Below, piece after piece: positions 694 through 23,567 of a stretch of 29,896 nt of DNA. Source of the stretch: a virus; the IMG/VR virus record IMGVR_UViG_3300031760_000017, one strand, 5' to 3'. The notes under the pieces were generated by a model. It ran no database searches. It was not told the origin of the DNA and saw only the letters and a program-made list of their open reading frames with translations. Each line of letters opens with the position of its first letter. Within the stretch, counting starts at the first letter, position 1. Position numbers and translations under genes: made by a program.

Positions 694-1729
694 TAGAACT
701 TTAAGAAATAGTCTCCCTATACTGTGAAGTATAGTATAAAAAATTTTGTGAACTCTATTGCTCAGAGGTGTGTAAAGAACGTTAAGTATTTAGTAGGAAA
801 TGACTAATTAATCTTTATGCTAACAGGGGAGCCTTAGCAAGTAAAGTTGAAGGTAATCCAGTGCCAAGCCTATTATTAGGAAGGTGTAACGACTATCCGA
901 AAGGAGTAGGGCAGATGATGAGCTACTGCTCGAAGTGCAAAAATCTTTAAATATTTTCTACCACTTTGGTCAAAGTGGGATAAATTAATTAATCGAATTT
1001 TTATATATAATAGAGAGATATAGAAAGGAGATTAATAATATGTTAATCTATAAAATAACGAATTTAATAAATAATAAATGTTATATTGGTCAGACAATAA
1101 AAACTGCTGAATAGAGATGGAAAGAACATCAAAGTCATGCATTTGGCTCGCATTTAAATGATCAAAATAAAACTTTATATAAAGCAATAAGAAAATATGG
1201 TCTTGAAAATTTTACTTTTGAAGTTCTTCAAGATAATATTGAAACTTTTGAACAATTAGATAAGGCAGAAATTTATTGGATTGATTATTATAATAGTTTT
1301 GTAAAAGGATATAATGAAACTTTTGGTGGTCAACAATATCATAAAATTCTACCAAATAAAGAGATTATAGAAGATTATTACAAAACAAAAAGTGCTAGAA
1401 AAACTGCTTTAAAATTTGGAATAGATCATTCTACAGTAGATGACATTTTAAATCAAAATAATATTCCAAGATTCAGTTTTAGAGAAGCCACAGGAAAAAG
1501 AATTAAAATTTCAAAAGATGATTTTGAAAAAGATTTTAATTCAGTTAAAGATTGTGCTGAATGGTTTGTAGAAAATCAAATCTGCAAAACTAAAAATGTA
1601 GAAAGCGCAAGAGCTGGATTAAAAACTGCAAGATCATCTAAAGGAAATGGCTTATATTATGGTTATTTAATAGAAAATATTTAAAGAATAAGATATAGTC
1701 TGTGCCATTAGAAATAATGGAATTACACG
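694..1729 (+). mobile_element. Group I self-splicing intron in the DNA polymerase gene.
   Basis: The 5' exon end ggagaU (688-693) pairs with an internal guide gtctcc (711-716), including a U.G wobble at the splice site. Conserved R/S-like P7 elements gactatc (891-897) and aagatatagtct (1690-1701) are present. A P9-like hairpin ccatta..taatgg follows. The terminal omega-G at 1729 leaves the splice in frame (FWR-Y-LNKERV). An internal HEG has its own RBS. Confidence 0.8.
1040..1684 (+). CDS. GIY-YIG homing endonuclease encoded within the polymerase intron. It contains one in-frame TAG at 1112-1114.
   Basis: The N-terminus reads MLIYKITNLINNKCYIGQTIKTAE-TAG-RWKEH, the GIY..YIG...R..H motif as in I-TevI and Seg proteins. 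The RBS aaaggag lies 8 nt upstream. The C-terminal region is a basic DNA-binding tail. The TAG interrupts the motif and must be read through. Confidence 0.8.
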
Positions 1730-4356
1730 ATTTAAATAAAGAACGTGTTGAGTTAGGCGACATAGACTTAGATCTTTGCCCTTCAAAACGTCCATTAATT
1801 CTTCAAAAAATAAAAGAAGAACGTGGTCAGAATTTTAATAAAGATATTGATGATTTAAGTAGAAAAAACCTTGGTTGTACACTTATTGCGACTTTTGGTA
1901 CAGAAGGAACTAAATCAGCAGTATTAACAGCTTGCCGCGGTTACCGCTCAGAAGATTTTCCAGACGGGATTGATGTTGATACAGCTCAGTTTTTATCTTC
2001 TTTGATTCCAAGTGAAAGAGGTTTCTTATGGCCTCTTAAAGATGTCGTTTATGGAAATAAAGATAAAGATAGAAAACCAATTACGCCTTTTATTTCAGAA
2101 ATTAATTTATATCCTGGTCTATTAGATATTGCAATGGCGATTGAAGGATTGATAAATAAAAGGTCTAGTCATGCTTCTGGTGTTATTCTTTTTGATGAAG
2201 ACCCGTACGAGTTTGGATGTTTTATGAAAACTCCAAAAGGAGAAATTATAACTCAATGGGATCTTCATAAATGTGAAGCATGTGGCATGACAAAATATGA
2301 TTTCCTTGTAACAGAAGTTCAGGATAAAATTGTTCAAACAATTAAACTTCTTCAAAAAAATAATAAAATTGATAAAGACCTTTCTTTAAGAGAGGTGTAT
2401 GATAAATATCTTCATCCAGAAGTTTTACCTTTAAACGACGAAAAAATATGGAAAGCTCTTCAAAATAATAGCGTTTTAAATGTTTTCCAGTTTGATTCAG
2501 ATGTAGGATCACAAGCCGCAAAGAAAATTAAACCAACTAATATTCTTGAAATGGCGGATGCCAATGGTTTAATGCGTCTTATGACATCTGAGAAAGGCGA
2601 AGAGACGCCTATGGAAAAATATATTCGTTATAAAAATAATATCTTATTATGGTATCAAGAGATGAATCGAGCTGGATTAACAGATGAAGAGCAAAAAATT
2701 ATTGAACCATATTTCAAACAATCTTATGGAGTTCCGCCATCACAAGAGCAATTAATGAGAATGTTAATGGATAAGAATATTTGTAACTTCTCATTAAAAG
2801 AAGCTAATGCCGCACGTAAAATTGTTGGTAAAAAACAAATGGCAAAGATTCCTGAATTACATCAAAAAATCTTAGATACAGCTTCTAGTTCGTCTCTTGG
2901 TAAATATATTTGGAAATGCGGTGTTGGTCCTCAGATGGGATATTCGTTCTCTATTATTCACGCTCTTGCTTATTCTTTTATTGGAGTTCAAACAATTTAT
3001 TTAGCGACTAATTGGAATCCAATTTATTGGAATACCGCATGTCTAATTATTAATAGTGCTTCTCTTGAAGATGAAGATGACGATGAAGATGATGATGAAG
3101 ATAACACTAAAGATAAATCTACTGATTATTCTAAATTAGCAAAAGCTATTGGAGATATAACTTCAAAAGGAATTAAAGTATCATTAATTGATATTAATAA
3201 ATCTGGATATAGTTTTGAACCAGATGAAGAAAATAATGAAATTCTTTTTGGATTAAAAGGTGTTAATAAAATTGGCGGTCCAGTTATTGATAAGATTATT
3301 GGCGGTCGCCCCTACACTGGAATTATTGATTTTATGAATAGATGCCCGCTAAATAAAACTCAAATGATTTCATTAATTAAGTCAGGAGCTTTTGATAAGG
3401 TTGATAATAATTGGGCATCAGAAATCTGTAAAGAAAACCCAAGATATGCAATAATGGCGTATTATATATCAATAGCTAGTGAACCAAAGAAAAAATTAAC
3501 ATTACAAAATTTTAATGGATTATTAAAAAATAAATTAATTCCAGAAAGTTTACTTAAACAACAACAGATTTTTATATTTAATAAATTTCTTAAAGAAAAT
3601 AAAAAAGTTGGTAAATACTATGTTTTTGATGAAGGTTCTTTAAATTTTTATTCTTATTACTTTGATTTAAATGAATTAGATGTTATTAATGGAATTACTT
3701 GTATTCTTCAAAGTAGATGGGATAAAATTTATAAGAGAGAAATGGATGAAGTTAGAGGTTGGTTAAAAGAAAATCAAGAAGAGGTTTTAAATCAATATAA
3801 TAACTTATTATTTAAAGAAACTTGGAATAAATATGCAACTGGAAACGTTTCTGCTTGGGAGATGGAAAGTTTATGTTTTTATTATCATGAACATGAATTA
3901 CTTAATATTGATAATTATAAATATGGAATTGTAAACTTTTCATCTTTATCAGAAGAGCCAGTAGTTGATTATTTCTTTAAGAGAGGAGATAGAAAAATTC
4001 CAATCTTTAAATTATATAGAATTGCTGGAACAATTATTAGTAAAAATAATACTAAAGCATCTATCACCATTTTAACAACAGATGGAGTTGTAAATGTAAA
4101 ATTTACAAAAGAATATTATGCTATGTTTAATCGTCAAATTTCTGAAAAGCAACCAGATGGTACTAAAAAAGTATTAGAAAAAGGTTGGTTTTCTCGTGGT
4201 ACAAAAGTTTTAATCACAGGATTTAGACGAGAAGACACCTTTGTAGCAAAAACTTATAAAGCAACTCCTACTCATCAATTATATAGAATCATCAATGTAA
4301 ATGATAAAAAGATTACCTTAGAACATGAAAGGATAAACGCAAATGTAGAAGATTAA
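1730..4356 (+). CDS. DNA polymerase III alpha subunit, exon 2 (palm/fingers/OB region). It has an acidic low-complexity insert EDEDDDEDDDEDN at about 3058-3100.
   Basis: The ORF 1702..4356 (884 aa) has no in-frame TAG, TAA or TGA. It runs LNKERVELGDIDLDLCPSKR...GVILFDEDPY...QWDLHKCEACGMTKYDFL and has DnaE-like order. It ends with TAA. Confidence 0.85.
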
Positions 4357-4918
4357 AGTTCTTGCGCTTTTTGGAGAGTCAGGTGCTGGAAAAGATACAA
4401 TCCAGCACTGGCTCGAATGGTATTTAAAAGATACTATACATAGAATAGTATCTTATACAACAAGACCTCAACGAAGCTATGAAATTGAAGGTCGTGATTA
4501 TTATTTTATATCAAAAGATAAATTTTTTGAATAGCTCAATGATAATAAAATACTTGAATACACCTGTTTTAATGATTGGTATTATGGAACTTCCATTAAT
4601 GAATTAAAAAAAGATAAAATAAATATAGGAGTTTTTAATCCACAAGGTATTCGCAGCCTACTATCACATTCAGATACTATTGATGTGCTTCCAGTTTGGA
4701 TAAAAACAAAAAACAAATAGCGTCTCTTGCGCTCTTTAAAAAGAGAAATTTATCCAAACTGCACAGAGATTTGTCGTCGTTTTTTAGCAGACCAAAAAGA
4801 TTTTCAAGGAATTGATTTTGAATATGAATTCTTTTTAAACGACACAGATACAGATCATTATATTGGATTTCTTAATAGACCAAAAGTAGCAGTATTTTTA
4901 AAGGACAAAAATGATTAA
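4342..4918 (+). CDS. Guanylate kinase-like (d)NMP kinase. It has three in-frame TAGs, at codon 2, about 4531 and about 4720.
   Basis: It contains the P-loop LFGESGAGKDTI and the GMP-binding motif SYTTRPQRSYEIEGRDYYFISKDKFFE-TAG-LNDNKILEY...WYYGT. The start ATG overlaps the polymerase stop. The track ORF 4727..4918 is the C-terminal fragment after the last TAG. Confidence 0.75.
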
Positions 4919-4987
4919 TTTTATTAAAAGTTTTTTAAATAATAAGAGAGAAATTATATGATTTTTAGTAAAACGGGAGGTTTTTAA

Positions 4988-5215
4988 ATGATTATATTAT
5001 ATTCAACAAATTGCCCAAAATGCAATGTTTTAAAACAGAAACTACAAAATCTTAATATTGATTTTTAGATTTCTGAAGATATTAAAGAATTAATTTAGAG
5101 AGGTTTTAGAGAAGCTCCTATTTTAAAGATTGATAATTAGTATTTAAAATTTTCTGAAGCTATTCAATGGGTAAAGGAGAAAACGAAACTTGAACATAAC
5201 AATTAGACTAAATAA
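4988..5215 (+). CDS. NrdH/glutaredoxin-like redoxin. It has four in-frame TAGs.
   Basis: MIILYSTNCPKCNVLKQKL...GFREAPILKIDN matches the NrdH CxxC thioredoxin fold (compare YTRNDCVQCHATK...GFRQLPVV). The RBS gggagg lies upstream. The gene sits immediately upstream of nrdD, as in NrdH-containing operons. Confidence 0.65.
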
Positions 5216-7130
5216 AAACTTTACGACAGCTTATAATAGATTACAAGCTGAATATGGAACTTAGATTGCAAAAATAAACGGTTTTGCAGATGAGCAACTA
5301 TCTTATAATGATTTTATTAGTAATTTTATAAATGAAGATACCGTTGCGGATGCTAGTATTGATGGTAATTCAAATGTATCTCACAAAGACATTGTTACAT
5401 TACTAAATGAAATGCCTAAATCTCATAGAAAATTATTAGCTTTTAATAAAATTCATTATGAAATGCAGAAAAAATATGGTTTTAAAATAGCTAATGAGTG
5501 GTTAAAACTTGAATGGATGGGTGCATTATATATGCACGATTCTGATACATCTACTTTTAAAAGTTATTGTTTTGCTTATGATTTAAAAGATGTTGCAGAA
5601 AAAGGTTTGTTTTTCTTAGGTAAAAATTTTAATGCAAAACCGCCGCAACATTTAGGGACATTTGTTGATTTTGTAAAAGAATTTATTTCTTATAATAGTA
5701 ATAGAACATCTGGTGCAGTAGGTTTACCTAATTTAATTCCTTATATGTTTTATTTCTGGAATAAAGATATAAAAGAACACTATTGGTTAGGACCGCCAAA
5801 AAAATATGCTATTCAAAATTTTCAAAGATTTATTTATGCAGTAAATCAACCTTATGTAAGAGACGGTTCTCAATCAGCTTTTACTAATACATCAGTATTT
5901 GATCGTCCTTATTTTGAAGCTCTATTTGGAGGAAGTGTTTTCCCAGATGGAAGTTTTATGATTGATTATGAAGATGAAATTATTAATTTTCAAAAATGGT
6001 ATATGGAAACCATGTCTGCTATTCGATCTGAAAATATGATGACTTTCCCAGTAAGCACAATTTCATTGCTATATCAAGATGGTAATTTTGTAGATGAAGA
6101 TTTTGCAAAATGGGCTATTAAGCATAATATGAGATGGTCAGATAGTAATTTATTTGTAGATGATAGTGTTAATAGTTTATCTAACTGTTGTAGATTAAAA
6201 AGTAATATTGATGAACTAGGATACTTTAATTCTATTGGTGGAACCGCATTGAAAGTTGGTTCTGTAAAAGTTAATACTATAAACTTAGCTAGATTAGCTC
6301 TTGATACTGATTCGGAAGAAGAATATTTAAAAGAGTTAAAAAGAAGAACAATTATTTGCTTACAATCTTTAGATTGTGTTAGACACATTATCAAAAGAAA
6401 TGTAGAAAAAGGTTTACTTCCTAATTTTTCTTATGGATTAATAGATTTTGAACATCTTTATAATACTATTGGGTTCTTAGGCATTTATGAAACCATGAAA
6501 GCTTTTAATTATATTAAAGAAGACGAATTTGGAAATATTTTTTATACAGAAGAAGCTTCTAAATTTGGTAAAAAAATCTTTGATGTAATTCATTCAACAG
6601 CAGATGATTTTATTGAAAAAAATCATTTAGATTATAAAATAAATACAGAACAAATCCCTGGAGAAACTGCAGCTGATAAATTAATGAAAAAAGATAAATT
6701 CTTTTATCCAACTGCAACTATTTATGATTTGCCTCTTTATGGTAACCAATTTATCCCTCTTGGAATAAAAACAACATTACAAGAAAGAATTAGAATTCAA
6801 GCTTTATTTGATCATTATTGTAATGGAGGTTCAATTCTACATGCTAATATAGATGCTCCATTTGATAGTTTTGATAAAGCTTGGGATATGGTAAAATACA
6901 TAGCCGATCAAGGTGTAACGTATTTTGCTTTTAATACGAAGATTCAAGCATGTGAGGATAATCATGCTTTTTATGGGACAACATGCCCAATTTGTGGTAA
7001 ACCTATCGCAACAGAATATACAAGAATTGTTGGATTCTATACTCCAATTAGAACATGGTCTACTCATAGAAAACAAGAATATAGTATGAGGAGATGGGAG
7101 AAAATAAATGATAATAAAAGGACTAATTGA
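5190..7130 (+). CDS. nrdD: Anaerobic ribonucleoside-triphosphate reductase (class III RNR) NrdD. The likely start is TTG at 5190 after the RBS aaggag. There is one in-frame TAG at 5262.
   Basis: The track ORF 5412..7130 (572 aa, TAG-free) aligns with T4 NrdD: ...GALYMHDSD (compare GIIHVHDID), the zinc ribbon CPICG, and the glycyl-radical motif RIVGFYTP near the C-terminus. The conserved N-terminal region continues upstream of 5412 through one TAG, back to a TAA at 5172. The stop is TGA. Confidence 0.85.
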
Positions 7131-7608
7131 TGAAGATTTTATAAATTATAAAAAGCCTTCTATGACTATTGAATTTCCTTATTGCACTTTTAAATGTGAT
7201 AAAGAATGCAATCAATCTATATGTCAAAATAGTACTTTAATAAAATAGCCAGATATTGAAATAAGTTATGATGATTTATTACAAAGATATATAAATAATT
7301 CAATAACAAAAGCTATTATCTTTCAAGGATTAGAGCCTTTAGATTCTCTTTCTGATGTTATAAATTTAATAACTTTATTTCGTATTAAATATAATTGTAA
7401 AGATGATATAGTAATTTACACAGGATATAAAGAAGAAGAAAAAGAAGTTTGCTTTTTAAAAGAATTTCTTTTATCATCATATAAATAGATTAATAAAAAT
7501 ATTATAATTAAATATGGAAGATATATACCAAATCGATCTTCTCGTTTTGACTAGATACTAGGAGTAAATCTTTCATCAAATAACCAATATGCTAAAAAAA
7601 TTTGCTAA
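7108..7608 (+). CDS. nrdG: Anaerobic RNR activating protein (radical SAM) NrdG. It has three in-frame TAGs.
   Basis: The FPYCTFKCDKECNQSIC cluster corresponds to the T4 NrdG region GCLHKCEGCYN. QGLEPLD matches GGDPL, and IVIYTGYKEEE matches IWLWTGYKFED. It overlaps the nrdD stop, and the RBS gaggag lies upstream. Confidence 0.8.
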
Positions 7609-7620
7609 AAGAGGTTAAAA

Positions 7621-7998
7621 ATGAAAACAAAAGAAATTCCAATAGGAACTTTATATGATTTTAATAAACAAATAATATTGCGGCAAGGTAAATTAACAGG
7701 CAAAAAAATTGAATCAATTAAAAAAGAATTAGAAGATTGGTTTAATTGGCAAATTGATGGATATGCTATGTTGCTTTGTCGAGAAAGATATGATTTTACA
7801 GTATTTCATTTATATGAGAAATTGAACCGCAACCCACCTGCGGTTGCCGCAAATGAACTCATTGACATTTTAAAAAATAGAGGAAGAATCCTTTCAATAG
7901 AGCAAGAAGAAGATAAATGGGAAATTTGGTTAGAAATTGGCGGAGAAGCCTTTGCCTACTATTTATTTAATTGTGATGATTGGGTTATCCAATGTTAA
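7621..7998 (+). CDS. Hypothetical protein (125 aa), TAG-free.
   Basis: This is an intact ORF with RBS agaggt, and its spacing to neighbours is tight. I recognised no motif. Confidence 0.5.
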   Translation: MKTKEIPIGTLYDFNKQIILRQGKLTGKKIESIKKELEDWFNWQIDGYAMLLCRERYDFTVFHLYEKLNRNPPAVAANELIDILKNRGRILSIEQEEDKWEIWLEIGGEAFAYYLFNCDDWVIQC

Positions 7999-8007
7999 GG
8001 AGAAAAT

Positions 8008-11098: not shown

Positions 11099-12091
11099 TT
11101 AATCTCTTGATTCATCAAATTCATCTGTCTCACTTCCATTAACAGAGTCCTCATAAGATTCTTCAATAGAAGCTCTATTAGCTGGATGCGGGAAGATAGT
11201 GCTTGTTGTATCTGTTACACCAGTTGAATCATCAACAATTTGAATTGCACAAAGAACTTGTTTCTTTCTATCAAAATAAGTATATCCTGGGAAAGCGTCC
11301 ATAGTAAAAGTAAATGTACTAGGATCTCCAGTAGATGCCATTGAGAAAGTAAAGTTAGATTGAATTTTTACGTTAGGAAGTGTAATATTTGCAGGTAAAT
11401 CTTTTCCGTCTGCCTGACGTCTAAATAAAGTATCTGCTTCAACATAGTAGTATCCAGCAAAATGACCTGCATCAATTTGAAGTTCAGAAACAGTATCAGC
11501 TTTTTTCTTTACATAATAATCAACCATAACTGTTCCATTTGTAGGAGCAGTTCCAGTTCCCGCATATTCAAGAGTTCTTCCTTTGATTGTTTTTGTATTA
11601 GTGTTAGTTGTAGCACTTACTCCATAATCTTTATAAATATCACCAGTTAAATCTCCATACTCGTCAATATTCATAATATACAATGGAGCTGTTGAACAGA
11701 TTTCTTCAGTTGGTTCAAGAGCATCATCTAAATTAATAACTCCAGTTGCGCCAATTGTTGCCATAGATGTTTGATGGAAATGAATAAGATCACTTGTATT
11801 CTTCGCTCCCTTTACAACACCAGCACCAGAAAGCATAGCAAAACTAATTGGAGAAAGAAGCGCATCTTCAACAGTGAATGTTAAAGTTTTTTCACCTTCC
11901 CAAGAAATTAAACGAGTATTTCCGCGACCACCTGTTGCGTACACTGTAGTAGCCGCACCTTCTAATGTAGAGGTTTTTGCAGAGTCAAGATAAAAAACTG
12001 GCTGTCCTTGTTTAAAAATAACATTACCAATTTTCTGATCATTCTTTGCTCTAAAGACTACATTAACAATTTCACGTACACCAAATTTCAT
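11099..12091 (-). CDS. Major virion structural protein (330 aa, TAG-free), probably the major tail protein or tube. It has a Thr/Gly-rich Ig-like C-terminal region.
   Basis: It has a strong RBS aaggagg and a long TAG-free ORF. It is flanked by its own terminator. Its position is downstream of the capsid and connector genes. The composition (TxT repeats, beta-rich) is typical of major tail proteins. Confidence 0.55.
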   Translation of the reverse strand: MKFGVREIVNVVFRAKNDQKIGNVIFKQGQPVFYLDSAKTSTLEGAATTVYATGGRGNTRLISWEGEKTLTFTVEDALLSPISFAMLSGAGVVKGAKNTSDLIHFHQTSMATIGATGVINLDDALEPTEEICSTAPLYIMNIDEYGDLTGDIYKDYGVSATTNTNTKTIKGRTLEYAGTGTAPTNGTVMVDYYVKKKADTVSELQIDAGHFAGYYYVEADTLFRRQADGKDLPANITLPNVKIQSNFTFSMASTGDPSTFTFTMDAFPGYTYFDRKKQVLCAIQIVDDSTGVTDTTSTIFPHPANRASIEESYEDSVNGSETDEFDESRD

Positions 12092-16111: not shown

Positions 16112-17209
16112 TTAGTTTCCCCATGATGGGTCTTGGTCTAGTCCAGGCATAGCCTTAACTAAACTAACATTCTTATATACACAAATACCAGGATTAATCA
16201 TATAAGTAGCAACACCAAGTTTTTGATAAGTCTGGATTTCTGTTGACCAATCGCGGTTTTCAAAAGATTTTACTTGAGCAGCTCCTTCAAAAGCTACTTT
16301 AACAGGTTTCTCTGCTCCAGTAGGAATAATCCAAGCGTATGATGGATCAATTACTTTTTCACTATTAGTTTCATCTGTAAAAGACTGCGGAAGAATAATT
16401 ACTTGATGTCCTTTGTAAGTTCCTAAAGAACCATTATTCCAAATCTGTTCTTTCATTCCATCAGACATCGCATTCCAGTTTAATGAAGCCTGGTTGTTAG
16501 CAATAGTTGTAGGAGCCATTGTTGCAGCAAATTCAAATGTACAATAAATTGTACTCTTACCATAAACGTCTGCTGTCATAAGAAGCTGATCCATTGCCGC
16601 TTCATTAAATCCAGTCTGAGCTGTTTTATTTGTAGCAGGAATATTTAAAACTGTAGCTTCAAGAGCTTTTGCAATTTCACGATAAACTGCTTCATCCATT
16701 CCTTCAAGTACAAGACTATAATAATCATTCATAGTCATACGACCATCAAGAAGTTCTTCCCATTCAATACGAGAAGCGCCTCCATAAGCAGCTGTCGGTA
16801 CTTCAAGTGAATATCCATCAAGCTTGAAGACTTCATATCTACCTGCTAAACCAACTCTTGTTACAAACTGTTTAGCACGTTTCTTAGAAGCTTCACTGAT
16901 TCTTACTTTATAAACAGGTCTTGTTCCTTGCGCGAATGTACGAACATCAGCAAACTGTCCATAATTCTGAAGGACCTTTTGCGGAAGAACTTCTGTAAGA
17001 CCTACTTCAATAAGTGTATAAATAAGATTTTTATTTTCTCTAAAATCTTGAGGAGTCGCCCCAAGTTCGTTTAATTCTTTAATAAAAGTTTTATTCAGAG
17101 CTTCTGCTGAAAGCTTTTCTCCACCAAAAGAAAAAGCAGTAGAAGGATTTAATGATGCTTTCGCATTGGCTCTAGCTAATTCAATAAGCTGATCTCTTGT
17201 TAATGCCAT
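16112..17209 (-). CDS. Major capsid protein (HK97 fold, 365 aa). It is TAG-free.
   Basis: Track ORF with a strong RBS aaggagg. The length and sequence character are typical of phage major capsid protein. It is followed by a terminator and preceded by the scaffold-like and head genes. Confidence 0.8.
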   Translation of the reverse strand: MALTRDQLIELARANAKASLNPSTAFSFGGEKLSAEALNKTFIKELNELGATPQDFRENKNLIYTLIEVGLTEVLPQKVLQNYGQFADVRTFAQGTRPVYKVRISEASKKRAKQFVTRVGLAGRYEVFKLDGYSLEVPTAAYGGASRIEWEELLDGRMTMNDYYSLVLEGMDEAVYREIAKALEATVLNIPATNKTAQTGFNEAAMDQLLMTADVYGKSTIYCTFEFAATMAPTTIANNQASLNWNAMSDGMKEQIWNNGSLGTYKGHQVIILPQSFTDETNSEKVIDPSYAWIIPTGAEKPVKVAFEGAAQVKSFENRDWSTEIQTYQKLGVATYMINPGICVYKNVSLVKAMPGLDQDPSWGN

Positions 17210-17226
17210 TGTCTTTTTCCTCCTTA

Positions 17227-17775
17227 TTACTGAATTCTCTGAAGTTTAACACCAGGGGTTCCATCCGGCATTGTATAATGATCTGTTGCATTATCTTTTA
17301 CGACCTTAAAAATAGGACCATCACCTTCTCCGACAACAAGGAATCCATTTTCACCAACATGAAGTTTCTGTCCTTTGGTCGGGAAAGTTTGTGTAACTGC
17401 TACATTCGGACCTGTACCAGCCGCAAAAGTATTAGTAGTAAAAATATCACCAATATTAGTTTTAATTAAACGAGGATACATTTTTCCATCAGAAAAATCC
17501 TCGGGTTTATATACAAAATCTTTATGACTTTGAAGTCTTTCATCATAAAGTTTTTCTTCATTATAAACAAGCATAAATTCGCCATCTTCAGCAGTAAAAT
17601 TTACTTCACCAGCTGCATAATCATATTTAGCAAACTGACCCTGCTCAAGCTGTGTAATACTAGCAGCTGCAGGTAGTTGTGCATAAATCTGACCAGTTAC
17701 AATACCAGACAGATGATTAGGTTCAACTTGTCCATAACCAATTCTTTTAGTTAAGTCTCTTGCCATTTTTAGCAT
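17227..17775 (-). CDS. Head protein (182 aa, TAG-free), possibly a decoration or scaffold-associated protein.
   Basis: Track ORF with RBS aggagg. It sits between the scaffold-like gene and the capsid gene. Confidence 0.45.
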   Translation of the reverse strand: MLKMARDLTKRIGYGQVEPNHLSGIVTGQIYAQLPAAASITQLEQGQFAKYDYAAGEVNFTAEDGEFMLVYNEEKLYDERLQSHKDFVYKPEDFSDGKMYPRLIKTNIGDIFTTNTFAAGTGPNVAVTQTFPTKGQKLHVGENGFLVVGEGDGPIFKVVKDNATDHYTMPDGTPGVKLQRIQ

Positions 17776-17789
17776 CCTCCTAAAATTAA

Positions 17790-19133
17790 TTAACCAAGTT
17801 TCTCTTGTTCTTTAACAGCTTTCACCCATTCTGGCAGGCTGTCATTTTTATCACTATCTAATGTATATGTGATAGTTTTTTCTTCATTATTTTCTTCTTT
17901 CTCTTTTAAAGAAAAACTAACTTTTTTATCAAAACAAATAACTGAAAGTTTTGCTTTAATTTCTTCTAAAGTGTACTTCTACTTATTACTAATAACATCT
18001 GCTTTATCTTCTTCAGAAAGCATATAGAATTCAGCAATAAGTGCATCCTTTTTCTGATTATCAATTTCTCTTTTAAATTTCACGAGTTCTTGATATTGAT
18101 TTTGAAGAGTCTAATAAGAAGTTTTTAAAGCTTCAAGCTAATTTTCAATTAATTCATATTTTTTTGCTTTTTCCTTATCTTTATCATCATCTTCATCATC
18201 TTTATCTTCATCATCTGATGAATCTTCAGAAGAGTCTTCTTTATCTTCAGTTTCAGATTTGTCTTCTTTATCATCATCTTTTTTTACATAATCAGCAGGA
18301 ACAGAAGCATCTTCCATTTGATCAACCGTAGAAATTGTTGTATCAATTTCTTCTTCAACTTGAGTAAACTCAGTTACAGCAGTATCAGAAGTTTCATTCT
18401 CAACAACCACAGTTTTTTCAAGATTATCCATCTGTTGTCCTCCTCCGTCTAAGGCATTCTTTAAATCTTGCATCATACTAAAAAGTGTATGCCTAAAATT
18501 ATCGTCTAATGTAAATTTCAAACTTACATCTGGAGCCGTTACAGAAGCGCCTTCGAAGCAAGGCTCAACATCGTCTCCTAATATACAAATTTTTTGAATA
18601 ATTGCATCATTTATAATAAAGAAGTCTAATCCATTTTCATAATTTTTTTGCCAATTTCCTTTTAAGGTTTCTGGTTTAAATTCCATTGATTGCGGACGAC
18701 CTTCATTCACAGGTAAGCTGGATTCTGGAAATTGATCAGTCCAAAGATAACCTGTTGTCATAAGATATTTTCTTACAACAGTATTACCCATACCATCGCT
18801 ATCCTAAAAATCTTGAAACCAAACTTTTGCATCAGGAGATACAAAACCATAAGGAACAGTTTGACATTCGAATTTTACTCCTTCATCATCAATAATAACT
18901 TTTTCTCCATGATCTGTAAAATCTTCTTTACTATCTCTATAATAACCTACAATTGGCGCGCCTCGAAGACTTTTCCCAATTTCAACAGCAACCTATTTAG
19001 AAATAAAACTATGGTTTCTATTTGCGCCAAGATAAAATACTTTAATATCACATTTAGACATTAAAGGATTTATATCAAGAGGTTGAAGATTTAAAAATTC
19101 AGGAGAGCTTATCGTTGCAACTGATTGGTGCAT
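17790..19133 (-). CDS. Scaffolding / prohead-protease-like protein (about 447 aa) with five in-frame TAGs. It has a strongly acidic DE/S-rich linker and a coiled-coil C-terminus.
   Basis: The track ORF 18138..18791 is the middle segment. The frame continues upstream to the ATG at 19133 (RBS aaaggag) and downstream through TAGs to TAA at 17790. Its position is between portal and capsid. Confidence 0.55.
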
Positions 19134-19325
19134 AATAAAAATTCTCCTTTTTCATTTCCATATATAATAAAAATTTGAATAATTTTCTTAATAACTTTTG
19201 TCCAAAAAATTTTAATTCATACTTTCACGATTTTGAATTGTTTTTGTCGATTTCTAATCATCTGGTTTTTCAGGTCTTCCCGCACCCTATTTTGAATCTC
19301 CGCCAGTTTTATTACGATTTAAAAC

Positions 19326-20753
19326 CTATGCATTCATAGTACTAGACATTAATGGTGGAATAAAGACGTTAACTAAATCAAGAATATCATTTTCAAAATA
19401 AGCTGTTGCTAAAATAGCGCTTTGAGATTGTCCAAGAGCTATTTGTGGTAACATTTTAGAATAACCTAATTGAGTATGTTCTTTATATTGTTTAGCTAAA
19501 TCTTTATAATTATAAATAGTTGTAGGAAGAATTTGTGCCCTGTAATTAACCTTTTTTGGACTCTTATTATAAGGTATTAATAAAGTATTTAAGAAAGTTT
19601 CAAATTGTTGAATTAAGTTCCACATTGAAGCTTCATCATTTAAAATAGATTTTTCAAGAGCAATATTACCATCAGTATTAAATTGCATTTGTGAAACACC
19701 AGCTTCATTATAAACTGTACGTTCAACTTTTTCTAAATCATCTGTTGTTGTAGTGGTATGATTATCTGCCATATCCGCAACTTCAACATCAGCAAAAGTT
19801 GTTAAAACATCAATTCCAATTGCTTTAGACAACATTTGTACTGCATTATTATGAAGTTGCTGAGCTTCATCTACATCAAATACTAGATCACCATTTTTAT
19901 CAATAGGCATTTTCTGAATAATAATTTTTAATAATTGTTGTTGCATCTTGCGGCGATCAAGGTCTTGAGCTGCATCTAAATCAATTATAGCAGGGATAAC
20001 CGCCATAAATGGTGGAAAATCCTATCCATTTAAATTAAATTTTATAACAGAACCAATAGGAAGTAAATACCATCCAGACTCGTCTCCAGGAAAATCAGGT
20101 TTTAATTTTCCTTGTTTATATAGTCTATATCCTTTTTCAAACTCTTGCGGAAAAATCTTTAACATTCGAAAACGTTGCTCTGAATCTGTGAACATATCAT
20201 CAAAATATTTCATATTAAATTCAACAAGAGGCTGCCCACCTGCCGCAATATATCTGGATCTGCAATATCTTGGCGGCAACTATTGAACTATTACTGTTCC
20301 ATTCTTAGCTATTAAATAACCATAATAACAGCCATTTTTTACAACTTTTAAAGCTACATCACCAAAAAATTTTTTAGCTTCAAATTTATCTAAATAATTT
20401 AAAACTTGATTGAACCCCTCAAGAAGTTTATCTGGTTTCATAGAATCATTATAATATGGTGTTACTAACCAATCATATCTATACATATAAGCCATATAAC
20501 GACATAATCTTTGATAGATACCACTAATCTTATAAAAATAATTAGAAATATCTCTCATCTTATTTAAATCGCCATAATGAATAGCTCTTAAAACCTGCTC
20601 TTTATTTGCTAAATATGGATTAACTCTTTGTAAATCTCCTAGTTTTAAAATTGCATCAGATACAGTTTTTACTCCAACTCGAATTTTTGCAAAATCAACT
20701 GGTATATATCCAGTAGCCTAATTAGGAATTTGGTAATCTTCAGTTCCAATCAT
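19326..20753 (-). CDS. Portal protein (about 475 aa) with three in-frame TAGs.
   Basis: The track ORFs 19326..20006, 20022..20279 and 20280..20558 are collinear in one frame, separated only by TAG. Its size and position immediately after terminase fit a portal. Confidence 0.7.
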
Positions 20754-20815
20754 ATTAAAGCCTTTTTTCTTTATCTATGCCATTCGATTTATCAACTTTA
20801 GATACCTCTCCTTCT

Positions 20816-21178
20816 TTACCACCCATACGCCGCCTTAAGAATATAATCATAATTTACACGTGCCTAATCCCAATAAGGAATAATAACTAATTTAATATCA
20901 TGATCTCGACAATACTATCTTTTTCTCATATCATTATACTGTTGTTTTCTTAATCCATTATAACCACCAAATTTATCTTTAGCTTCATAATGTTGAATTC
21001 CTTGAAATTCAATTAAAAAATCAATATTATGCTAATCATCAAAAACAGCAAAATCAAATCTTAATGGACGTCCGGTATTACTTACTAAATCTGGAAAAGA
21101 GTATTCTTCTACGAACTCTAAACCAGAATCTTGTAATATTTCTTCTATTTTAATTTCTCCTCTGGATGCTCGCATATT
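20816..21178 (-). CDS. Free-standing PD-(D/E)XK (Vsr/DUF559-like) homing-endonuclease-like protein (about 120 aa) with three in-frame TAGs.
   Basis: The motif RFDFAVFDD-TAG-HNIDFLIEFQGIQHY resembles the D...(D/E)...IEYDG.QH core of the Vsr/DUF559 endonuclease family. It is inserted between the terminase and portal genes with its own RBS gaaggag. Confidence 0.55.
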
Positions 21179-21236
21179 TTTTCTCCTTCACTATATTATA
21201 TAAAAAAACCTTTTATAAAATTAATAACTTTCGACC

Positions 21237-22641
21237 TTAATTTTGTGTAAAAAATAAAAAGTCTGATATATTTCTTTTTCTTCTTTTCTTATTTAATTCT
21301 TCTTCATAACGTATATAATAAAGTCCATAAATAAAAGCAGAAAATTTATCTTTTTTAATACCTCTATTACTTTGCTTTAAAATAATATTAACGCCCTAAT
21401 TTTCTTCTACAAGATTTAACATTTGCTATTTTAAAATAGATGTTAAAATAAAAGGACGTAAATATTCATTCCTTTCATCCATATTCATATTTTGTCCTTG
21501 TTTAGTAGACATCAATTTTGTTTTTGCTAAACTTTCATCTATTAAAAATCTAATTTTGCCACTAAACATTTGGGTTTGAGCATAACTATACGCTTCTGTA
21601 TTAATTGGTGCGTTAGCTTTTATTATATATAATATATCACGCTATGTTTCTGGAGTTACAAATTTTTTATATTCTGGATATTCATCTGTATTAAAAACTC
21701 CAAAAGGTGGTAAATACTATCCATCCGCAGTTTCTTGAGCTTTTATTAAATAATCAATTAAACCAACACCTAATCCATTACCGTCAATAGCAATTCGTTT
21801 AGGTTTATACTTATAATATAAGTGTTTTATATGAATACATTGAGTCTCAAAATGCTAAGCATCATAAGTATAAATATTAACAAGAGTCTTATGAGCAGCG
21901 CCTTGCACTTGCGGCGTTACCTTAAAAACACAAATTTCAGTTGTACATCCTATACGCCCAACGTCCACTCCAAATACATAATATGCGGTTTTAGAAGATC
22001 TTCCGCTATACTCATACTATGGTTGCAATAAAACTCGATATTTATCAAACTTCTCAGAAGAAAAGAAAGCATTTTCTACATCTCCTGACCAAATACTCCG
22101 ATATTCTCTATTAAAAGACTAATCATTAAATGTTCCTTGTAATCTTAATTGTTCAACAAAATCTTCATCTAATAATCCAGAAACAACAGGAGTTTCATAA
22201 GTTCCACCCATTATCATATACTAATCTGGATCAAGAATAGAATTAATCAAGATCTATATCAGTTTGTGATATGCGAATGAATTTTTCCATCCTGCGGTGG
22301 TAATATAGATCTGTGACTTATTAACATTTTCTTCCTTGTGGCGGCTGCCATCTGAAAGACGTCTATCAACGTTAGTAGTAGGAATGATAACTTCATTTAA
22401 AATATCCCCATCAATAAGAACACACTATTCCATTAATCCACCTGTTCGACGTTGACCTCTAGAAGATTGTCTTGCCGCAAGAATATCAATAGTTGAGCCA
22501 TTCTTAAAAACGTATTTTACATTGTCTTTTGATTTTGTAGAAACACCTCTGTCCCAATTAATTTCATCATTTAAACCAGGAATAAGTCTACATATCTACT
22601 AGATTTTCGCGACTGTAATCGAGGCTGCTTGCTACTTACCA
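21237..22641 (-). CDS. Terminase large subunit, exon 2 (ATPase remainder plus nuclease domain). It has about 13 in-frame TAGs.
   Basis: It starts GK-TAG-QAASITVAKI (Walker A continuation). It includes FKNGSTIDILAARQSS (compare T4 gp17 LDNGSSIGAYASS). GGLME-TAG-CVLID may be Walker B. The nuclease motifs YYVFGVDVGRIGCTTEICVF and IAIDGNGLGVGLIDYL are present. Confidence 0.8.
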
Positions 22642-23567
22642 CCTGTGGTTACAAACAAATGTGAGTTAGGATATAAAATGCATCTTATCATTAATGCCAT
22701 CATTGACAAAAAAGACTTTGAATAAGCTACTTCTATTTAATATAATTCGTTAAATTATATTCGTATATACGCTCTATGTTCCCATAGAGATTAGACTATA
22801 TCATCATCCTTTAAACTTGGAAGTAAAGGAGCCTACCGCTTCGAGGAAACTTTTCCTCTACTCTCTTTCGAGATAGTCGTTGAACTTTTTATTTATAAGT
22901 AAAAGTTTTTCTTTCCGCTTTACCTAACGGAGTGTCTATATCTTTAGTAAGATAAGTCCAAGTTTCTCTTCTTCTTATTTTAGCTATAAAGCTTCTTACA
23001 GGAAAGCCAGTGATTTTAGAAATTTCTTTATCAGTATATTTATTACTTTTTAATAAATCTATTACCAACTTTGCATCTTTTTCAGTATAATGAGATAGAT
23101 TAGTTTTTTCTCCTTGTAAATATGAGAAATCAGTTAATCCAGTTTTTATGGCGTGGTGTATATTTTCTTGTGAAGTTACCCACTATAAATTATCTAATAC
23201 GTTATTCTCTTTATTACCATCTATATGATTTATTTGTAATTTTTCCATTCCTTCTATCGGTTTTAATAACATCATTAATAATCTATGATATTGAATAGAT
23301 GTTGTCCCCCCGCCTTTTTTCATTAAACTTACTCTCATATAACCATTATGATTTTTATTTATTTTAATATAATTTCCTGTATTGACATTACGAATTTTAC
23401 CCGTGTCATCAATAACATAACAGTCTTTAATATCAGGGTAGAGATCGCTAATTCTCTTCTCCATAAAAATCTCCTTATAAATAACTTAGCTGCTGATAAT
23501 CCGTTCTGGACTTCCCAGCAATTCAATAGGTTTCCTTTGAGAATATTACTATTCTCACCCCGCACTC
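22642..23567 (-). mobile_element. Group I intron in the terminase large subunit gene, just upstream of the Walker A lysine. The junctions are uncertain by a few tens of nt.
   Basis: Exon 1 reads ...FYQRVFLRIVMRHRYVYATFPRR and then breaks. The frame resumes about 0.9 kb downstream at (I)GK. The intron carries an HNH ORF with its own RBS. On the minus strand it has the same R/S-like elements as the polymerase intron: aacgactatc (plus 22872-22878) and gatatagtct (plus 22794-22803). A P9-like hairpin is present. A G precedes the proposed 3' splice site and a U ends exon 1. Confidence 0.7.
22889..23464 (-). CDS. HNH homing endonuclease (HNH_3 type, about 191 aa) inside the terminase intron. It has one in-frame TAG.
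   Basis: NHNGYMRVSL...QYHRLLMMLL...INHIDGNKENNVLDNL-TAG-WVTSQENIHHA matches the H-N-H motif (HxDGNxxNN...NLxW.T..EN). The RBS aaggagat is present. The track ORF 23183..23464 is the N-terminal part up to the TAG. Confidence 0.8.

What the first reader, a model, noticed from the sequence alone, without database searches (positions are those of the whole stretch)
1112..23185. Homing endonuclease genes themselves carry in-frame TAG codons
The GIY-YIG HEG has TAG at 1112, the HNH HEG at 23183-23185 and the Vsr-like HEG has three. Selfish elements that recently invaded from standard-code donors would be expected to be TAG-free or TAG-terminated. Their TAG content implies long residence in a recoded lineage. 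Alternatively, these elements may only be expressed when suppression is active.
Basis: inference. Interest (0 to 1): 0.5.

Follow-up and report, generated by a model that had tools for sequence, protein, structure and literature searches.

The report
Homing endonucleases in amber-recoded phage
The three nuclease genes really do read through in-frame TAG codons, but only because this whole phage uses TAG as an ordinary sense codon; the surprise is that here TAG seems to mean glutamate, not the glutamine reported for other phages.

Summary
Observation confirmed. TAG lies in frame at 1112-1114 (GIY-YIG codon 25), 23183-23185 (HNH codon 94), and 21032-34, 20915-17 and 20864-66 (Vsr-like gene). Each lies inside a conserved domain, with homology continuing downstream.

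The window comes from a TAG-recoded phage of about 130-145 kb, distantly related to phAss-1. No gene in it ends in TAG.

The TAG density of the three genes matches their neighbours, so there is no signal specific to homing endonuclease genes (HEGs).

GIY-YIG and HNH sit in group I-type introns, in DnaE (694-1729) and TerL (22728-23572). Both introns are sporadic among relatives and far better conserved than the flanking exons. They are therefore recently mobile within the recoded clade, not long-term residents of this genome.

The Vsr-like gene has an I-Bth0305I-like fold. It is fixed between TerL and portal across the clade, so it is a long resident and probably not an active HEG.

The idea that HEGs are expressed only under suppression was already proposed by Borges et al. 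for TGA-recoded phages. Here it is possible but unsupported.

Unexpected result: in this clade TAG alternates with GAA/GAG, not CAA/CAG. It also occupies the invariant Walker-B glutamate of TerL and the NLEW glutamate of HNH. That points to TAG = Glu, whereas phAss-1 places TAG on invariant Gln. No suppressor tRNA was found in the window.

The parts
3..693 (+). DnaE (DNA polymerase III alpha) exon 1, partial at the window edge; contains no TAG
   Evidence: Pfam PF07733 profile positions 19-92. The boundary comes from comparison with the intact allele L165. Exon 1 ends in U at 693.
694..1729 (+). Group I-type intron in DnaE, 1036 nt, carrying the GIY-YIG ORF
   Evidence: It is a precise insertion relative to intact alleles. 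Removing it restores W-R-Y-L-N-K-E-R, identical to L165. The 5' exon ends in U and the intron ends in G. P1 pairs GGAGAU(688-693) with GUCUCC(711-716), read from the sequence. The P7'-like AAGAUAUAGUC follows the ORF, and Rfam gives weak partial Intron_gpI hits at 1690-1719 and 823-895. 63 of 79 relatives lack an insertion here.
1040..1684 (+). GIY-YIG homing endonuclease ORF, 214 aa, with its own AGGAG ribosome-binding site
   Evidence: Pfam PF01541, E=5.5e-8. phrog_7168/314 'homing endonuclease'. 493 homologues. Ribosome-binding site seen.
1112..1114 (+). In-frame TAG, codon 25 of GIY-YIG
   Evidence: The same codon is TAG in the 97-98% identical copies and GAA in the copies 81-90% identical. 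The majority residue among homologues is E.
1730..4356 (+). DnaE exon 2; contains no TAG
   Evidence: Pfam PF07733 positions 94-259, PF17657 and PF14579. Boundary.
20816..21175 (-). Vsr-like / I-Bth0305I-like PD-(D/E)XK nuclease gene, 119 aa, free-standing between TerL and portal, with TAG at 21032-34, 20915-17 and 20864-66
   Evidence: phrog_9084. AlphaFold model with pLDDT 85. The best TM-score match by Foldseek is the I-Bth0305I catalytic domain 3r3p_B; Vsr 1vsr, Hjc and TnsA also match. The gene sits at the same place in nearly all clade loci and in phAss-1. It is absent between TerL and portal in standard-code relatives.
21237..22727 (-). TerL (YonF/SPbeta-type large terminase) exon 2, with 13 in-frame TAG
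   Evidence: phrog_24618/15503/5909. tblastn hits to Firmicute phage terminases. Boundary.
22425..22427 (-). TAG on the putative Walker-B catalytic glutamate of TerL (GGLME-TAG)
   Evidence: This column is E in six standard-code TerLs and in phAss-1. Within the clade it holds only TAG, GAA or GAG (TerL column 103).
22728..23572 (-). Group I-type intron in TerL, 845 nt, at the Walker-A site, carrying the HNH ORF
   Evidence: It is a precise phase-0 insertion between codons 82 and 83 relative to the intact L085. Rfam Intron_gpI scores 39.9 bits, E=1.7e-8, at 22772-22963(-), below the gathering score of 50. P1 pairs CCCCGU with GCGGGG and P10 pairs GCUUAUUC with GAAUGAGU, read from the sequence. 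The last intron base is A, not G.
22889..23464 (-). HNH homing endonuclease ORF, 191 aa, HNH_3 + NUMOD4, with its own AAGGAG ribosome-binding site
   Evidence: Pfam PF13392 and PF07463. phrog_59. 124 homologues. Ribosome-binding site seen.
23183..23185 (-). In-frame TAG, codon 94 of HNH, inside the NL-x-W motif
   Evidence: All five intron copies share the TAG. All homologues at or below 74% identity have E here (NLEW).
23573..23818 (-). TerL exon 1, 82 codons, with one TAG
   Evidence: tblastn to phAss-1 and to intact relatives. Boundary.

Best explanation
The three nuclease genes are intact ORFs that pass through TAG because TAG is a normal sense codon in this phage. The genes picked up TAG by the same drift as every other gene in this phage population.

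Shown:
1. The whole window is TAG-recoded, and no gene stops at TAG.
2. The TAG frequency of the three genes equals that of their neighbours.
3. GIY-YIG and HNH are carried by group I-type introns that split DnaE next to its catalytic aspartates and TerL at Walker A. These introns are present in a minority of relatives and are much more conserved than the exons, so they are homing among phages of the same recoded clade.
4. The Vsr-like nuclease is a fixed, vertically inherited gene. It consists of a nuclease domain only, so it is probably no longer, or never was, an autonomous HEG.
5. In this clade TAG exchanges with GAA/GAG and occupies invariant Glu positions.

Inferred:
- TAG is decoded as glutamate by a phage-supplied tRNA(CUA) of tRNA-Glu type, encoded outside the window.
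- TAG codons arise by GAG to TAG changes that are synonymous in this code.
- Full-length HEG protein can be made only once TAG decoding is available. For the GIY-YIG ORF, inside a TAG-free early gene, this could delay its production, but that is a by-product and has not been shown to be an adaptation.
For: Recoding of the whole window.

Domains span the TAGs.

TAG share of Glu-like codons is 12.8% in the three genes, 3.9% in early genes and 17.8% in late genes, with no significant deviation.

Intron status and mobility:
- Insertion boundaries.
- Rfam Intron_gpI, E=1.7e-8.
- Sporadic distribution: 63 intact against 16 inserted DnaE loci; HNH intron in 4 of 64 TerL loci.
- Mosaic identity: DnaE intron 98-100% against exons 74-87%; TerL intron 91-98% against exons 78-86%.

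Vsr-like gene is fixed and syntenic and has an I-Bth0305I/Vsr-type fold.

TAG = Glu:
- Of 86 alignment columns holding TAG in TerL, portal and the Vsr-like gene, 77 also hold E. 24 hold only E besides TAG, and none holds only Q.
- The substitution profile of TAG mirrors that of GAG, not CAG.
- Among close sequence pairs, TAG is replaced by GAA 26 times, GAG 9 times and CAG twice.
- Invariant-Gln columns of the Vsr-like gene use CAA/CAG only in 54 sequences.
- In six standard-code TerLs, the window's 14 TAG columns hold E in 32 cells and Q in 3, and they include the invariant Walker-B EE.
- In a multi-gene comparison with standard-code phages, aligned residues were E 29, D 12, Q 5.
- The HNH motif is NLEW in homologues, and GIY-YIG codon 25 is mostly E.

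Glu-type tRNA(CUA) in related contigs: it lies next to tRNA-Glu(UUC) and tRNA-Glu(CUC). Its D-arm matches, but for one extra T, GTCAAGCGGTTAAGAC, a motif found in tRNA-Glu in 113 of 115 bacterial tRNAs that contain it.
Against: - No tRNA of any kind is in the window. No tRNA(CUA) was found in about 57 kb of the closest related contig, nor within 10 kb of DnaE in 80 relatives. The decoder of this phage is therefore unidentified.
- The Glu-type tRNA(CUA) comes from more distant relatives, whose link to the window rests on short similarities.
- The amino-acid assignment is comparative only, with no proteomics.
- Both Rfam intron scores are below the gathering threshold. The TerL intron ends in A instead of the canonical G. 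Splicing is untested.
- The Walker-B assignment of the EE motif rests on position and invariance, because TerL has no sequence match in the PDB.
- One real Gln codon (CAA) occurs at GIY-YIG codon 25 in one relative (L003), so that position tolerates Q.
Confidence: 0.8

Rival explanations
1. TAG in the HEG ORFs is a selected timing device. The endonucleases, above all GIY-YIG inside the early TAG-free DnaE gene, are kept silent until the phage turns on TAG decoding late in infection. This would protect intron splicing and the phage's own DNA.
For: - The TAG is at codon 25 of 214, upstream of all catalytic residues. The ORF has its own AGGAG site.
- The host gene DnaE has 0 TAG in 1105 codons.
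- The same idea was proposed for a preferentially TGA-recoded group I intron endonuclease in Agate phages.
- Delayed translation of T4 I-TevI is established knowledge (Gibb and Edgell 2010, cited from memory).
- The HNH TAG is conserved in all five intron copies.
Against: - GIY-YIG has a single TAG, at the early-module background rate (P(at least 1 TAG) = 0.49).
- Sister copies of the same intron HEG have GAA at that codon, so the TAG is neither conserved nor required.
- Other early-module genes carry 1-3 TAG each (Gmk 3, NrdG 3, dUTPase 1), so TAG does not cleanly mark late expression here.
- The HNH HEG sits in a gene that already has 14 TAG, so its own TAG adds no gating.
Confidence: 0.2
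2. This is ordinary genetic code 15. TAG is glutamine, as reported for phAss-1, crAss-like and Lak phages, and the HEG TAGs are CAG to TAG synonymous changes.
For: - The closest described relative, phAss-1, is annotated as TAG = Gln with a Gln-type tRNA-Sup (PMC10607447). Its TAGs do fall on invariant Gln columns of the Vsr-like gene and on one such column of TerL.
- The public protein database translates these genes with Q at TAG.
- L003 has CAA at GIY-YIG codon 25.
Against: - Within the window's clade no column pairs TAG only with Q, against 24 that pair it only with E.
- Invariant Gln columns never show TAG although CAG is common there.
- TAG sits on the invariant EE motif of TerL and the NLEW motif of HNH.
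- At TAG columns, standard-code homologues have E at about ten times the count of Q in TerL and about six times in the multi-gene comparison.
Confidence: 0.06
3. The HEG ORFs are decaying pseudogenes. TAG acts as a stop in them, and the downstream similarity is a relic.
For: - HEGs commonly degenerate.
- Two related GIY-YIG copies (L218, L228) carry a premature TAA or TGA after codon 26.
Against: - Downstream parts are conserved at the protein level across hundreds of homologues without frameshifts.
- The same TAG codon is used 79 times in essential late genes of the same genome.
- The introns show recent horizontal spread, which needs an active endonuclease.
Confidence: 0.02
4. The DnaE and TerL interruptions are not introns. 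They are free-standing HEG insertions that split each gene into two separately translated pieces, as in the Aeh1 nrdA/mobE case.
For: - DnaE exon 1 runs into a stop four codons after the junction.
- An ATG (1717) with some upstream spacing precedes exon 2.
- Rfam scores are below threshold.
Against: - The TerL C-terminal part has no start codon before the conserved P-loop residues. An in-frame stop lies three codons upstream.
- There are 108 + 161 nt and 346 + 45 nt of non-coding sequence around the ORFs. These include group I core motifs and good P1/P10 pairings at exactly the junctions that restore the intact protein.
Confidence: 0.1

Closest known systems
TGA-recoded group I intron endonuclease of Agate phages (Borges et al. 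2021/2022, bioRxiv 10.1101/2021.08.26.457843)
   Same: A homing endonuclease inside a self-splicing intron of an early gene of a stop-codon-recoded gut phage carries in-frame recoded stop codons. Production of the protein should therefore depend on the phage's code switch.
   Different: In Agate phages the codon is TGA (Trp) and the gene family is statistically enriched for it. Here the codon is TAG, there is one per intron HEG, at background frequency and not conserved among sister copies.
phAss-1 / proposed Phassvirus group, 'Caudoviricetes code 15 clade' (PMC10607447)
   Same: - Phages of about 135 kb with SPbeta/YonF-type TerL, a DnaE-type polymerase, class III RNR and TAG in late genes.
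- MCP 52% and TerL 45% identical to the window's.
- The same Vsr-like gene lies between TerL and portal.
   Different: - phAss-1 has uninterrupted DnaE and TerL, 36 tRNAs and three tRNA(CUA).
- Its TAGs fall on invariant Gln columns.
- The window's clade puts TAG on Glu columns and never on those Gln columns.
- The paper does not mention homing endonucleases or introns.
Genetic code 15 in crAss-like and Lak phages (TAG to Gln; proteomic validation in PMC9523058)
   Same: The amber codon is used as a sense codon, mostly in late genes and rarely or never in early genes. Hosts are presumed to use the standard code.
   Different: The inferred amino acid is Glu. Borges et al. state that only TAG to Gln and TGA to Trp were seen in phages whose code differs from the host's. 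I found no report of TAG to Glu in phages in the searchable library.
Phage group I introns with HEGs, for example T4 td/I-TevI (GIY-YIG) and SPO1 DNA-polymerase/I-HmuI (HNH) (own knowledge)
   Same: - Intron inserted at the most conserved catalytic motif of an essential gene.
- HEG ORF with its own ribosome-binding site in a peripheral loop.
- GAUAUAGUC-type P7 sequence.
- Sporadic distribution, and an intron more conserved than its exons.
   Different: - The host genes are DnaE and TerL of a recoded phage.
- The HEG ORFs contain amber codons.
- The TerL intron appears to end in A rather than G.
I-Bth0305I (EDxHD / Vsr-like homing endonuclease; PDB 3r3p)
   Same: It is the best structural match of the 119-aa protein (probability 1.0, TM 0.59/0.70). 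PHROG families containing this domain are annotated as homing or intron-encoded nucleases.
   Different: - The window protein is the nuclease domain alone, without a DNA-binding region.
- It is free-standing, not in an intron.
- It is fixed in the clade rather than sporadic.
- Sequence identity to 3r3p is about 15%.
Peritrich ciliate nuclear code 30 (TAA/TAG to Glu) (own knowledge)
   Same: It is a precedent for an amber codon reassigned to glutamate, through a tRNA-Glu-like suppressor.
   Different: It is a eukaryotic nuclear code in which both TAA and TAG are reassigned genome-wide. Here only TAG is reassigned, in a phage, and with a gradient between early and late genes.

Membership tests
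GIY-YIG homing endonuclease | GIY-YIG catalytic domain above the curated threshold | tested here: met
   PF01541 scores 33.4 bits against a cut-off of 22.6, over residues 2-92. phrog_7168 E=9.5e-32.
GIY-YIG homing endonuclease | Mobile-element behaviour: sporadic presence at one conserved target site, with the element more conserved than its flanks | tested here: met
   9 of 79 DnaE loci carry it at the same site and 63 are intact. The intron plus HEG is 98-100% identical in nucleotides against 74-87% for the exons.
HNH homing endonuclease (HNH_3 + NUMOD) | HNH motif and NUMOD DNA-binding module | tested here: met
   PF13392 scores 35.6 bits (cut-off 24.8). PF07463 scores 24.0 bits (cut-off 23.4).
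HNH homing endonuclease (HNH_3 + NUMOD) | Sporadic distribution at a conserved target | tested here: met
   It is present at the TerL Walker-A site in the window and in 4 of 64 related loci. It is absent from a relative whose TerL protein is 97% identical.
Group I self-splicing intron (DnaE insertion 694-1729) | Precise removal restores the conserved ORF; 5' exon ends in U paired with G in P1; intron ends in G | tested here: met
   Removal restores WRYLNKER, identical to intact alleles. U is at 693, G at 1729, and P1 pairs GGAGAU with GUCUCC.
Group I self-splicing intron (DnaE insertion 694-1729) | Conserved catalytic core recognised by the family model | tested here: inconclusive
   Only partial Intron_gpI hits of 14-21 bits, against a gathering score of 50.
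Group I self-splicing intron (TerL insertion 22728-23572) | Conserved catalytic core recognised by the family model | tested here: inconclusive
   Intron_gpI scores 39.9 bits, E=1.7e-8 in the 1-kb search, below the gathering score of 50. P7/P8/P9 motifs align well.
Group I self-splicing intron (TerL insertion 22728-23572) | Terminal guanosine at the 3' splice site | tested here: not met
   The boundary is uniquely defined against nine intact alleles. All five intron copies end ...UA|GCUUAUUC. No in-frame alternative ends in G.
Group I self-splicing intron (both insertions) | Self-splicing activity | not testable with these tools
   Needs RT-PCR or in vitro splicing.
Vsr-like / EDxHD (I-Bth0305I-type) homing endonuclease | PD-(D/E)XK Vsr-type nuclease fold | tested here: met
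   The model has pLDDT 85. Foldseek matches 3r3p_B with probability 1.0 and TMt 0.70, and also 1vsr, Hjc and TnsA. All E-values are 7e-3 or weaker.
Vsr-like / EDxHD (I-Bth0305I-type) homing endonuclease | Behaves as a mobile element (sporadic, in an intron or intein, or variable location) and has a DNA-binding domain | tested here: not met
   It is present at the same intergenic position in nearly all clade loci and in phAss-1, and its identity tracks its flanks. It has 119 aa with no extra domain.
Genetic code 15 (TAG = Gln) phage | In-frame TAG in conserved genes, with TAG not used as a stop | tested here: met
Genetic code 15 (TAG = Gln) phage | TAG aligns with glutamine in homologues | tested here: not met
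   TAG aligns with Glu. Invariant Gln columns are never TAG.
Genetic code 15 (TAG = Gln) phage | Phage-encoded tRNA(CUA) | tested here: inconclusive
   None is in the window or in the parts of related contigs that could be fetched. A Glu-type tRNA(CUA) exists in more distant relatives.

The most novel reading that the evidence does not exclude
This phage clade has reassigned the amber codon to glutamate rather than glutamine, while its relative phAss-1 uses TAG = Gln. Two different amber reassignments would then coexist within one phage family.

The likely decoder is a tRNA(CUA) derived from a Bacillota-type tRNA-Glu. In related contigs such a tRNA lies directly after tRNA-Glu(UUC) and tRNA-Glu(CUC).

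Intron-borne homing endonucleases that carry TAG at functionally conserved Glu positions (NLEW in HNH) would be correctly translated only in phages sharing this code. The code itself would then act as a barrier, or a passport, for the spread of selfish elements between phage lineages. Public pipelines that apply code 15 would mistranslate every TAG of this clade as Q.
Probability: 0.65. Interest if true: 0.8.

Novelty: new variant of a known kind. Interest (0 to 1): 0.55.

Why it matters
The finding as written, that HEGs contain recoded stop codons, is an expected and already published consequence of living in a recoded phage. It matters little on its own.

Three things add value.

1. There is a clear natural example of two intron-HEG elements actively homing within a recoded phage population. 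This shows that selfish elements adapt to, and are confined by, the host's code.

2. Comparative evidence is strong that TAG means Glu here.
   - If confirmed, this widens the known repertoire of phage code changes beyond TAG to Gln and TGA to Trp.
   - It implies that host GluRS can be co-opted, for example the non-discriminating enzyme of Bacillota.
   - It means databases that translate this abundant gut/rumen phage clade under code 15 carry systematic E-to-Q errors, including at catalytic residues.

3. Related phages with different amber meanings offer a test bed for how code switches evolve.

Tried and rejected
- Whole-window Rfam search at E up to 1 found no intron. The TerL intron appeared only when a 1-kb stretch was searched, and the DnaE intron gave only weak partial hits.
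- Hunt for the suppressor tRNA:
  - ARAGORN on the window found nothing.
  - ARAGORN on all fetched loci found no tRNA(CUA) in window-clade loci.
  - Walking right of the window in the closest contig, IMGVR_UViG_3300021400_001206, to about 77 kb found only tRNA-Lys.
  - 80 loci covering 10 kb either side of DnaE held no tRNA except one tRNA-SeC(TCA) call at the edge of L203, and none with a CUA anticodon.
  - A pattern taken from the long-arm Sup tRNA of phAss-1 gave 10 hits, none in the clade.
  - A Glu-D-arm plus CUA pattern in metagenomes gave 14 contigs, none demonstrably the window's phage.
- A PDB sequence search with TerL, meant to anchor Walker B, found no match.
- The dUTPase TAG position turned out to be a variable residue (P or E in solved homologues) and is uninformative.
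- phAss-1 TAG positions compared with standard-code homologues gave too few columns (Q 6, E 6). The Vsr-like alignment was more telling.
- The ~314-nt insertion inside the Vsr-like gene of some relatives has no Rfam match.
- I looked for an in-frame alternative 3' splice site ending in G for the TerL intron. None exists unless the 5' site follows A instead of U.
- Rejected: truncation at TAG, and recent import from standard-code donors.

Full report
**1. What the window is**

The 29.9-kb window has about 29% GC. It encodes:
- a DnaE-type polymerase, guanylate kinase, class III ribonucleotide reductase (NrdD/NrdG) and dUTPase on the + strand (1-9 kb);
- a late module on the - strand (9.2-26.3 kb) with virion proteins, major capsid protein, portal and a YonF/SPbeta-type large terminase;
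- small + strand genes to the right.

Under the standard code, ORFs of at least 100 aa cover 17.6 kb. With TAG read through they cover 30.9 kb. The 32 genes hold 91 in-frame TAGs, and every one of them ends in TAA or TGA.

The nearest described phage is phAss-1 (OQ749652): MCP 52% and TerL 45% identical. It is a 136-kb human-gut phage published as using TAG = Gln with three tRNA-Sup(CTA) (PMC10607447). IMG/VR holds many closer relatives of 130-145 kb.

**2. The observation**

All cited TAGs are present and in frame:
- 1112-1114 is codon 25 of the GIY-YIG ORF (1040..1684, +).
- 23183-23185 is codon 94 of the HNH ORF (22889..23464, -).
- 21032-34, 20915-17 and 20864-66 are codons 48, 87 and 104 of the Vsr-like gene (20816..21175, -).

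The Pfam and PHROG matches span the TAGs and continue beyond them. Hundreds of full-length homologues exist. The proteins are therefore not truncated at TAG.

The TAG content is not special. Relative to Glu-like codons, the three genes have 1/17, 1/11 and 3/11 TAG. The early module has 3.9% and late genes 17.8%.

**3. What the three genes are**

*GIY-YIG.* The window's DnaE is interrupted exactly between Pfam PF07733 positions 92 and 94.
- Comparison with intact alleles defines a 1036-nt insertion, 694..1729. Its removal restores W-R-Y-L-N-K-E-R, identical to the intact genes.
- The upstream exon ends in U and the insertion ends in G.
- GGAGAU(688-693) can pair with GUCUCC(711-716) as P1.
- A P7-like AAGAUAUAGUC follows the ORF.
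- 63 of 79 related DnaE loci are intact at this site. 16 have an insertion, and 9 of those carry this GIY-YIG gene.
- The intron plus HEG is 98-100% identical in nucleotides to copies in L170, L172, L176 and L191, whose DnaE exons are only 74-87% identical to the window's. The window's exons are 95-99% identical to the intron-less L165.

This is the signature of recent homing.

*HNH.* TerL is interrupted by an 845-nt insertion (22728..23572, - strand) between codons 82 and 83, at the Walker-A motif.
- Rfam's group I model matches the 3' part (39.9 bits, E=1.7e-8 in the 1-kb search, below the gathering score of 50), with P7/P8/P9 well aligned.
- CCCCGU/GCGGGG (P1) and GCUUAUUC/GAAUGAGU (P10) pair at exactly the junctions that restore FPR|AYSKSF.
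- The intron is present in the window and in four of 64 related loci. It is absent from L085, whose TerL protein is 97% identical.
- In L107 and L138 it is 91-98% identical while the exons are 78-86% identical.
- One oddity: all copies end in A rather than the canonical G.

*Vsr-like gene.* Pfam finds nothing, but PHROGs place it in families annotated as homing or intron-encoded nucleases.
- A model of its 95%-identical homologue P0241 (pLDDT 85) is closest to the catalytic domain of the homing endonuclease I-Bth0305I (3r3p_B, TM 0.59/0.70). It also resembles Vsr, Hjc and TnsA.
- Unlike the other two, it is present at the same place in nearly every relative and in phAss-1. Its identity tracks its neighbours, and it consists of the nuclease domain alone.
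- Standard-code relatives have TerL followed directly by portal.

It is an old insertion that has become fixed. Whether it still acts as a HEG is doubtful.

**4. What TAG means here**

I expected TAG = Gln. The data say otherwise.
- In codon alignments of TerL (47 sequences), portal (40) and the Vsr-like gene (54), 86 columns contain TAG. Of these, 77 also contain Glu. 24 contain nothing but Glu besides TAG, and none contains only Gln.
- TAG's substitution profile (GAA 0.49, GAG 0.12, GAT 0.11) copies that of GAG, not that of CAG.
- Between close sequence pairs TAG is exchanged with GAA 26 times, GAG 9 times and CAG twice.
- The invariant Gln columns of the Vsr-like gene use CAA and CAG only in all 54 sequences. 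CAG is common there, and a CAG to TAG change would be silent under code 15.
- Against six standard-code Firmicute-phage terminases, the window's 14 TerL TAG columns hold E in 32 cells and Q in 3.
- One TAG (22425-27) sits on the second E of the invariant EE motif that I take to be Walker B.
- Across several genes, standard-code homologues have E 29, D 12 and Q 5 at TAG positions.

The HEGs fit the same pattern.
- The HNH TAG replaces the E of NLEW, which is present in all homologues at or below 74% identity.
- GIY-YIG codon 25 is GAA in sister intron copies, and E is the family majority.
- The Vsr-like TAGs alternate with E.

By contrast, phAss-1 puts TAG on the invariant Gln columns of the same Vsr-like gene and on a conserved Gln column of TerL. 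More distant GIY-YIG homologues from other phages show TAG at the invariant Q of YIGQT.

I conclude that TAG is most probably Glu in the window's clade and Gln in phAss-1.

Borges et al. state that only TAG to Gln and TGA to Trp were seen in phages whose code differs from the host's. Three literature searches found no report of TAG to Glu in phages. The searchable library is incomplete.

**5. The decoder**

The window has no tRNA. I could not find a tRNA(CUA) in the fetched parts of the closest contigs.

More distant relatives (L270, L515, L516) have a cluster tRNA-Glu(UUC), tRNA-Glu(CUC), tRNA(CUA).
- The D-arm of this tRNA(CUA), GTCAAGCGGTTTAAGAC, differs by one extra T from GTCAAGCGGTTAAGAC. 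In a sample of bacterial genomes, that motif belongs to tRNA-Glu in 113 of the 115 tRNAs containing it, almost all from Bacillota.
- These contigs are linked to the window only weakly. L270 and L515 share short similarities with DnaE-flank loci of the wider clade. L270 also shares genes at 29-75% amino-acid identity with L162, a contig whose TerL is 81% identical to the window's. L516 shares a gene with the DnaE loci L208 and L221.

This is suggestive, not proof.

A plausible route, which is inference, runs as follows. Many Bacillota lack GlnRS and charge tRNA-Gln with Glu through a non-discriminating GluRS. A CUA tRNA that GluRS accepts and GatCAB ignores would then insert Glu.

**6. Interpretation of the finding**

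- The HEGs carry TAG because they live and move in a gene pool where TAG is a sense codon.
- 'Long residence' is right for the Vsr-like gene and wrong for the two intron HEGs in this genome.
- 'Expression only under suppression' follows directly for the full-length proteins. It has a published precedent and a classical analogue in the late translation of T4 I-TevI (own knowledge).
- It could matter for GIY-YIG, whose host gene DnaE has no TAG in 1105 codons.
- Against selection: the single TAG is at background frequency, sister copies have GAA there, and the neighbouring early-module genes Gmk, NrdG and dUTPase carry TAG. I see no evidence that it is selected.

**7. Verdict**

As stated, the finding is correct in its observation, ordinary in its meaning and already anticipated in the literature.

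The follow-up uncovered two well-supported group I-type intron/HEG elements homing within a recoded clade. It also uncovered strong comparative evidence for an amber-to-glutamate code variant that differs from the code of the closest described relative. That second point is what deserves experimental follow-up.

Noticed in passing
window 16112-17209(-), 17227-17775(-), 11099-12091(-): The major capsid protein and two other presumably abundant virion proteins have no TAG, although they sit in the TAG-rich late module. They also use CAG much more than other genes (10 of 17 Gln codons in MCP) and have higher GC (0.33-0.375). This looks like avoidance of TAG in the most highly expressed late genes.
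   Followed up: partly
window 22728 (3' end of the TerL intron); same in L086, L088, L107, L138: The TerL intron ends in A, not the canonical terminal G. The boundary is unambiguous against nine intact alleles, and P1 and P10 pairings support it. The only in-frame alternative that ends in G would put the 5' splice site after A and change Ala to Thr in the P-loop.
   Followed up: partly
L133 1104-1201(-) and L111 1104-1201(-), next to tRNA-Leu(CAA): A tRNA-like gene (Rfam tRNA 39.9 bits) has a 6-bp anticodon stem, an 8-nt loop (UUAAAGGU) and a long extra region. ARAGORN reads a 4-base anticodon. It occupies the position after tRNA-Leu that the tRNA-Sup(CTA) genes occupy in phAss-1. It is absent from the window.
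   Followed up: partly
L129, L131, L135, L136, L139-L144, L147, L148 (TerL loci of relatives): TerL of relatives carries further insertions at other sites, with other HNH genes 32-42% identical to the window's. In L141-L143 and L148 the gene is stretched to about 4.5 kb by several insertions. TerL is an intron hot-spot in this clade.
   Followed up: no
L088 3892-4553, and also L089, L101, L135: In some relatives the Vsr-like gene is itself interrupted by an insertion of about 314 nt that has no ORF hit and no Rfam match.
   Followed up: partly
L168, L189, L190, L196, L201, L204, L217, L219 (DnaE loci): Eight relatives have insertions of 0.8-1.2 kb at or near the same DnaE site. None matches the window's GIY-YIG or HNH proteins, so other elements use the same target.
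   Followed up: no
L218 and L228 (GIY-YIG copies about 82% identical): The ORF has a premature TAA or TGA after codon 26, yet similarity continues over the full length. Either the HEG is degenerating or something else is happening at that codon.
   Followed up: no
Proteins P0001-P0020, P0121-P0135 and P0241 onward in the public protein collection: Database translations of this clade show Q wherever the DNA has TAG, so code 15 was assumed. If TAG is Glu, these entries carry systematic E-to-Q errors, including at the HNH NLEW motif.
   Followed up: partly
L149 19400-20345 and L151/L154 (region right of the window in related contigs): The early region to the right of the window consists of many small TAG-free + strand genes. 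They are separated by repeated promoter-like elements (TTGACA ... TATACTAATAAC), GC-rich hairpins and isolated tRNA-Lys genes.
   Followed up: no
L504-L514 (metagenome contigs, two of them about 143 kb): A second family of Glu-D-arm tRNA(CUA) genes lies inside arrays of about 20 tRNAs, in the order Val, Sup, Ser, Ser. L505 and L507 also carry a tRNA with a 4-base anticodon call (tagg). Their phage lineage was not determined.
   Followed up: no
window 4919-5411: About 490 nt between Gmk and the NrdD start have no assigned gene. In phAss-1 the region beside NrdD holds two tRNA-Sup(CTA) genes and a tRNA-Leu, but no tRNA is detectable here.
   Followed up: partly
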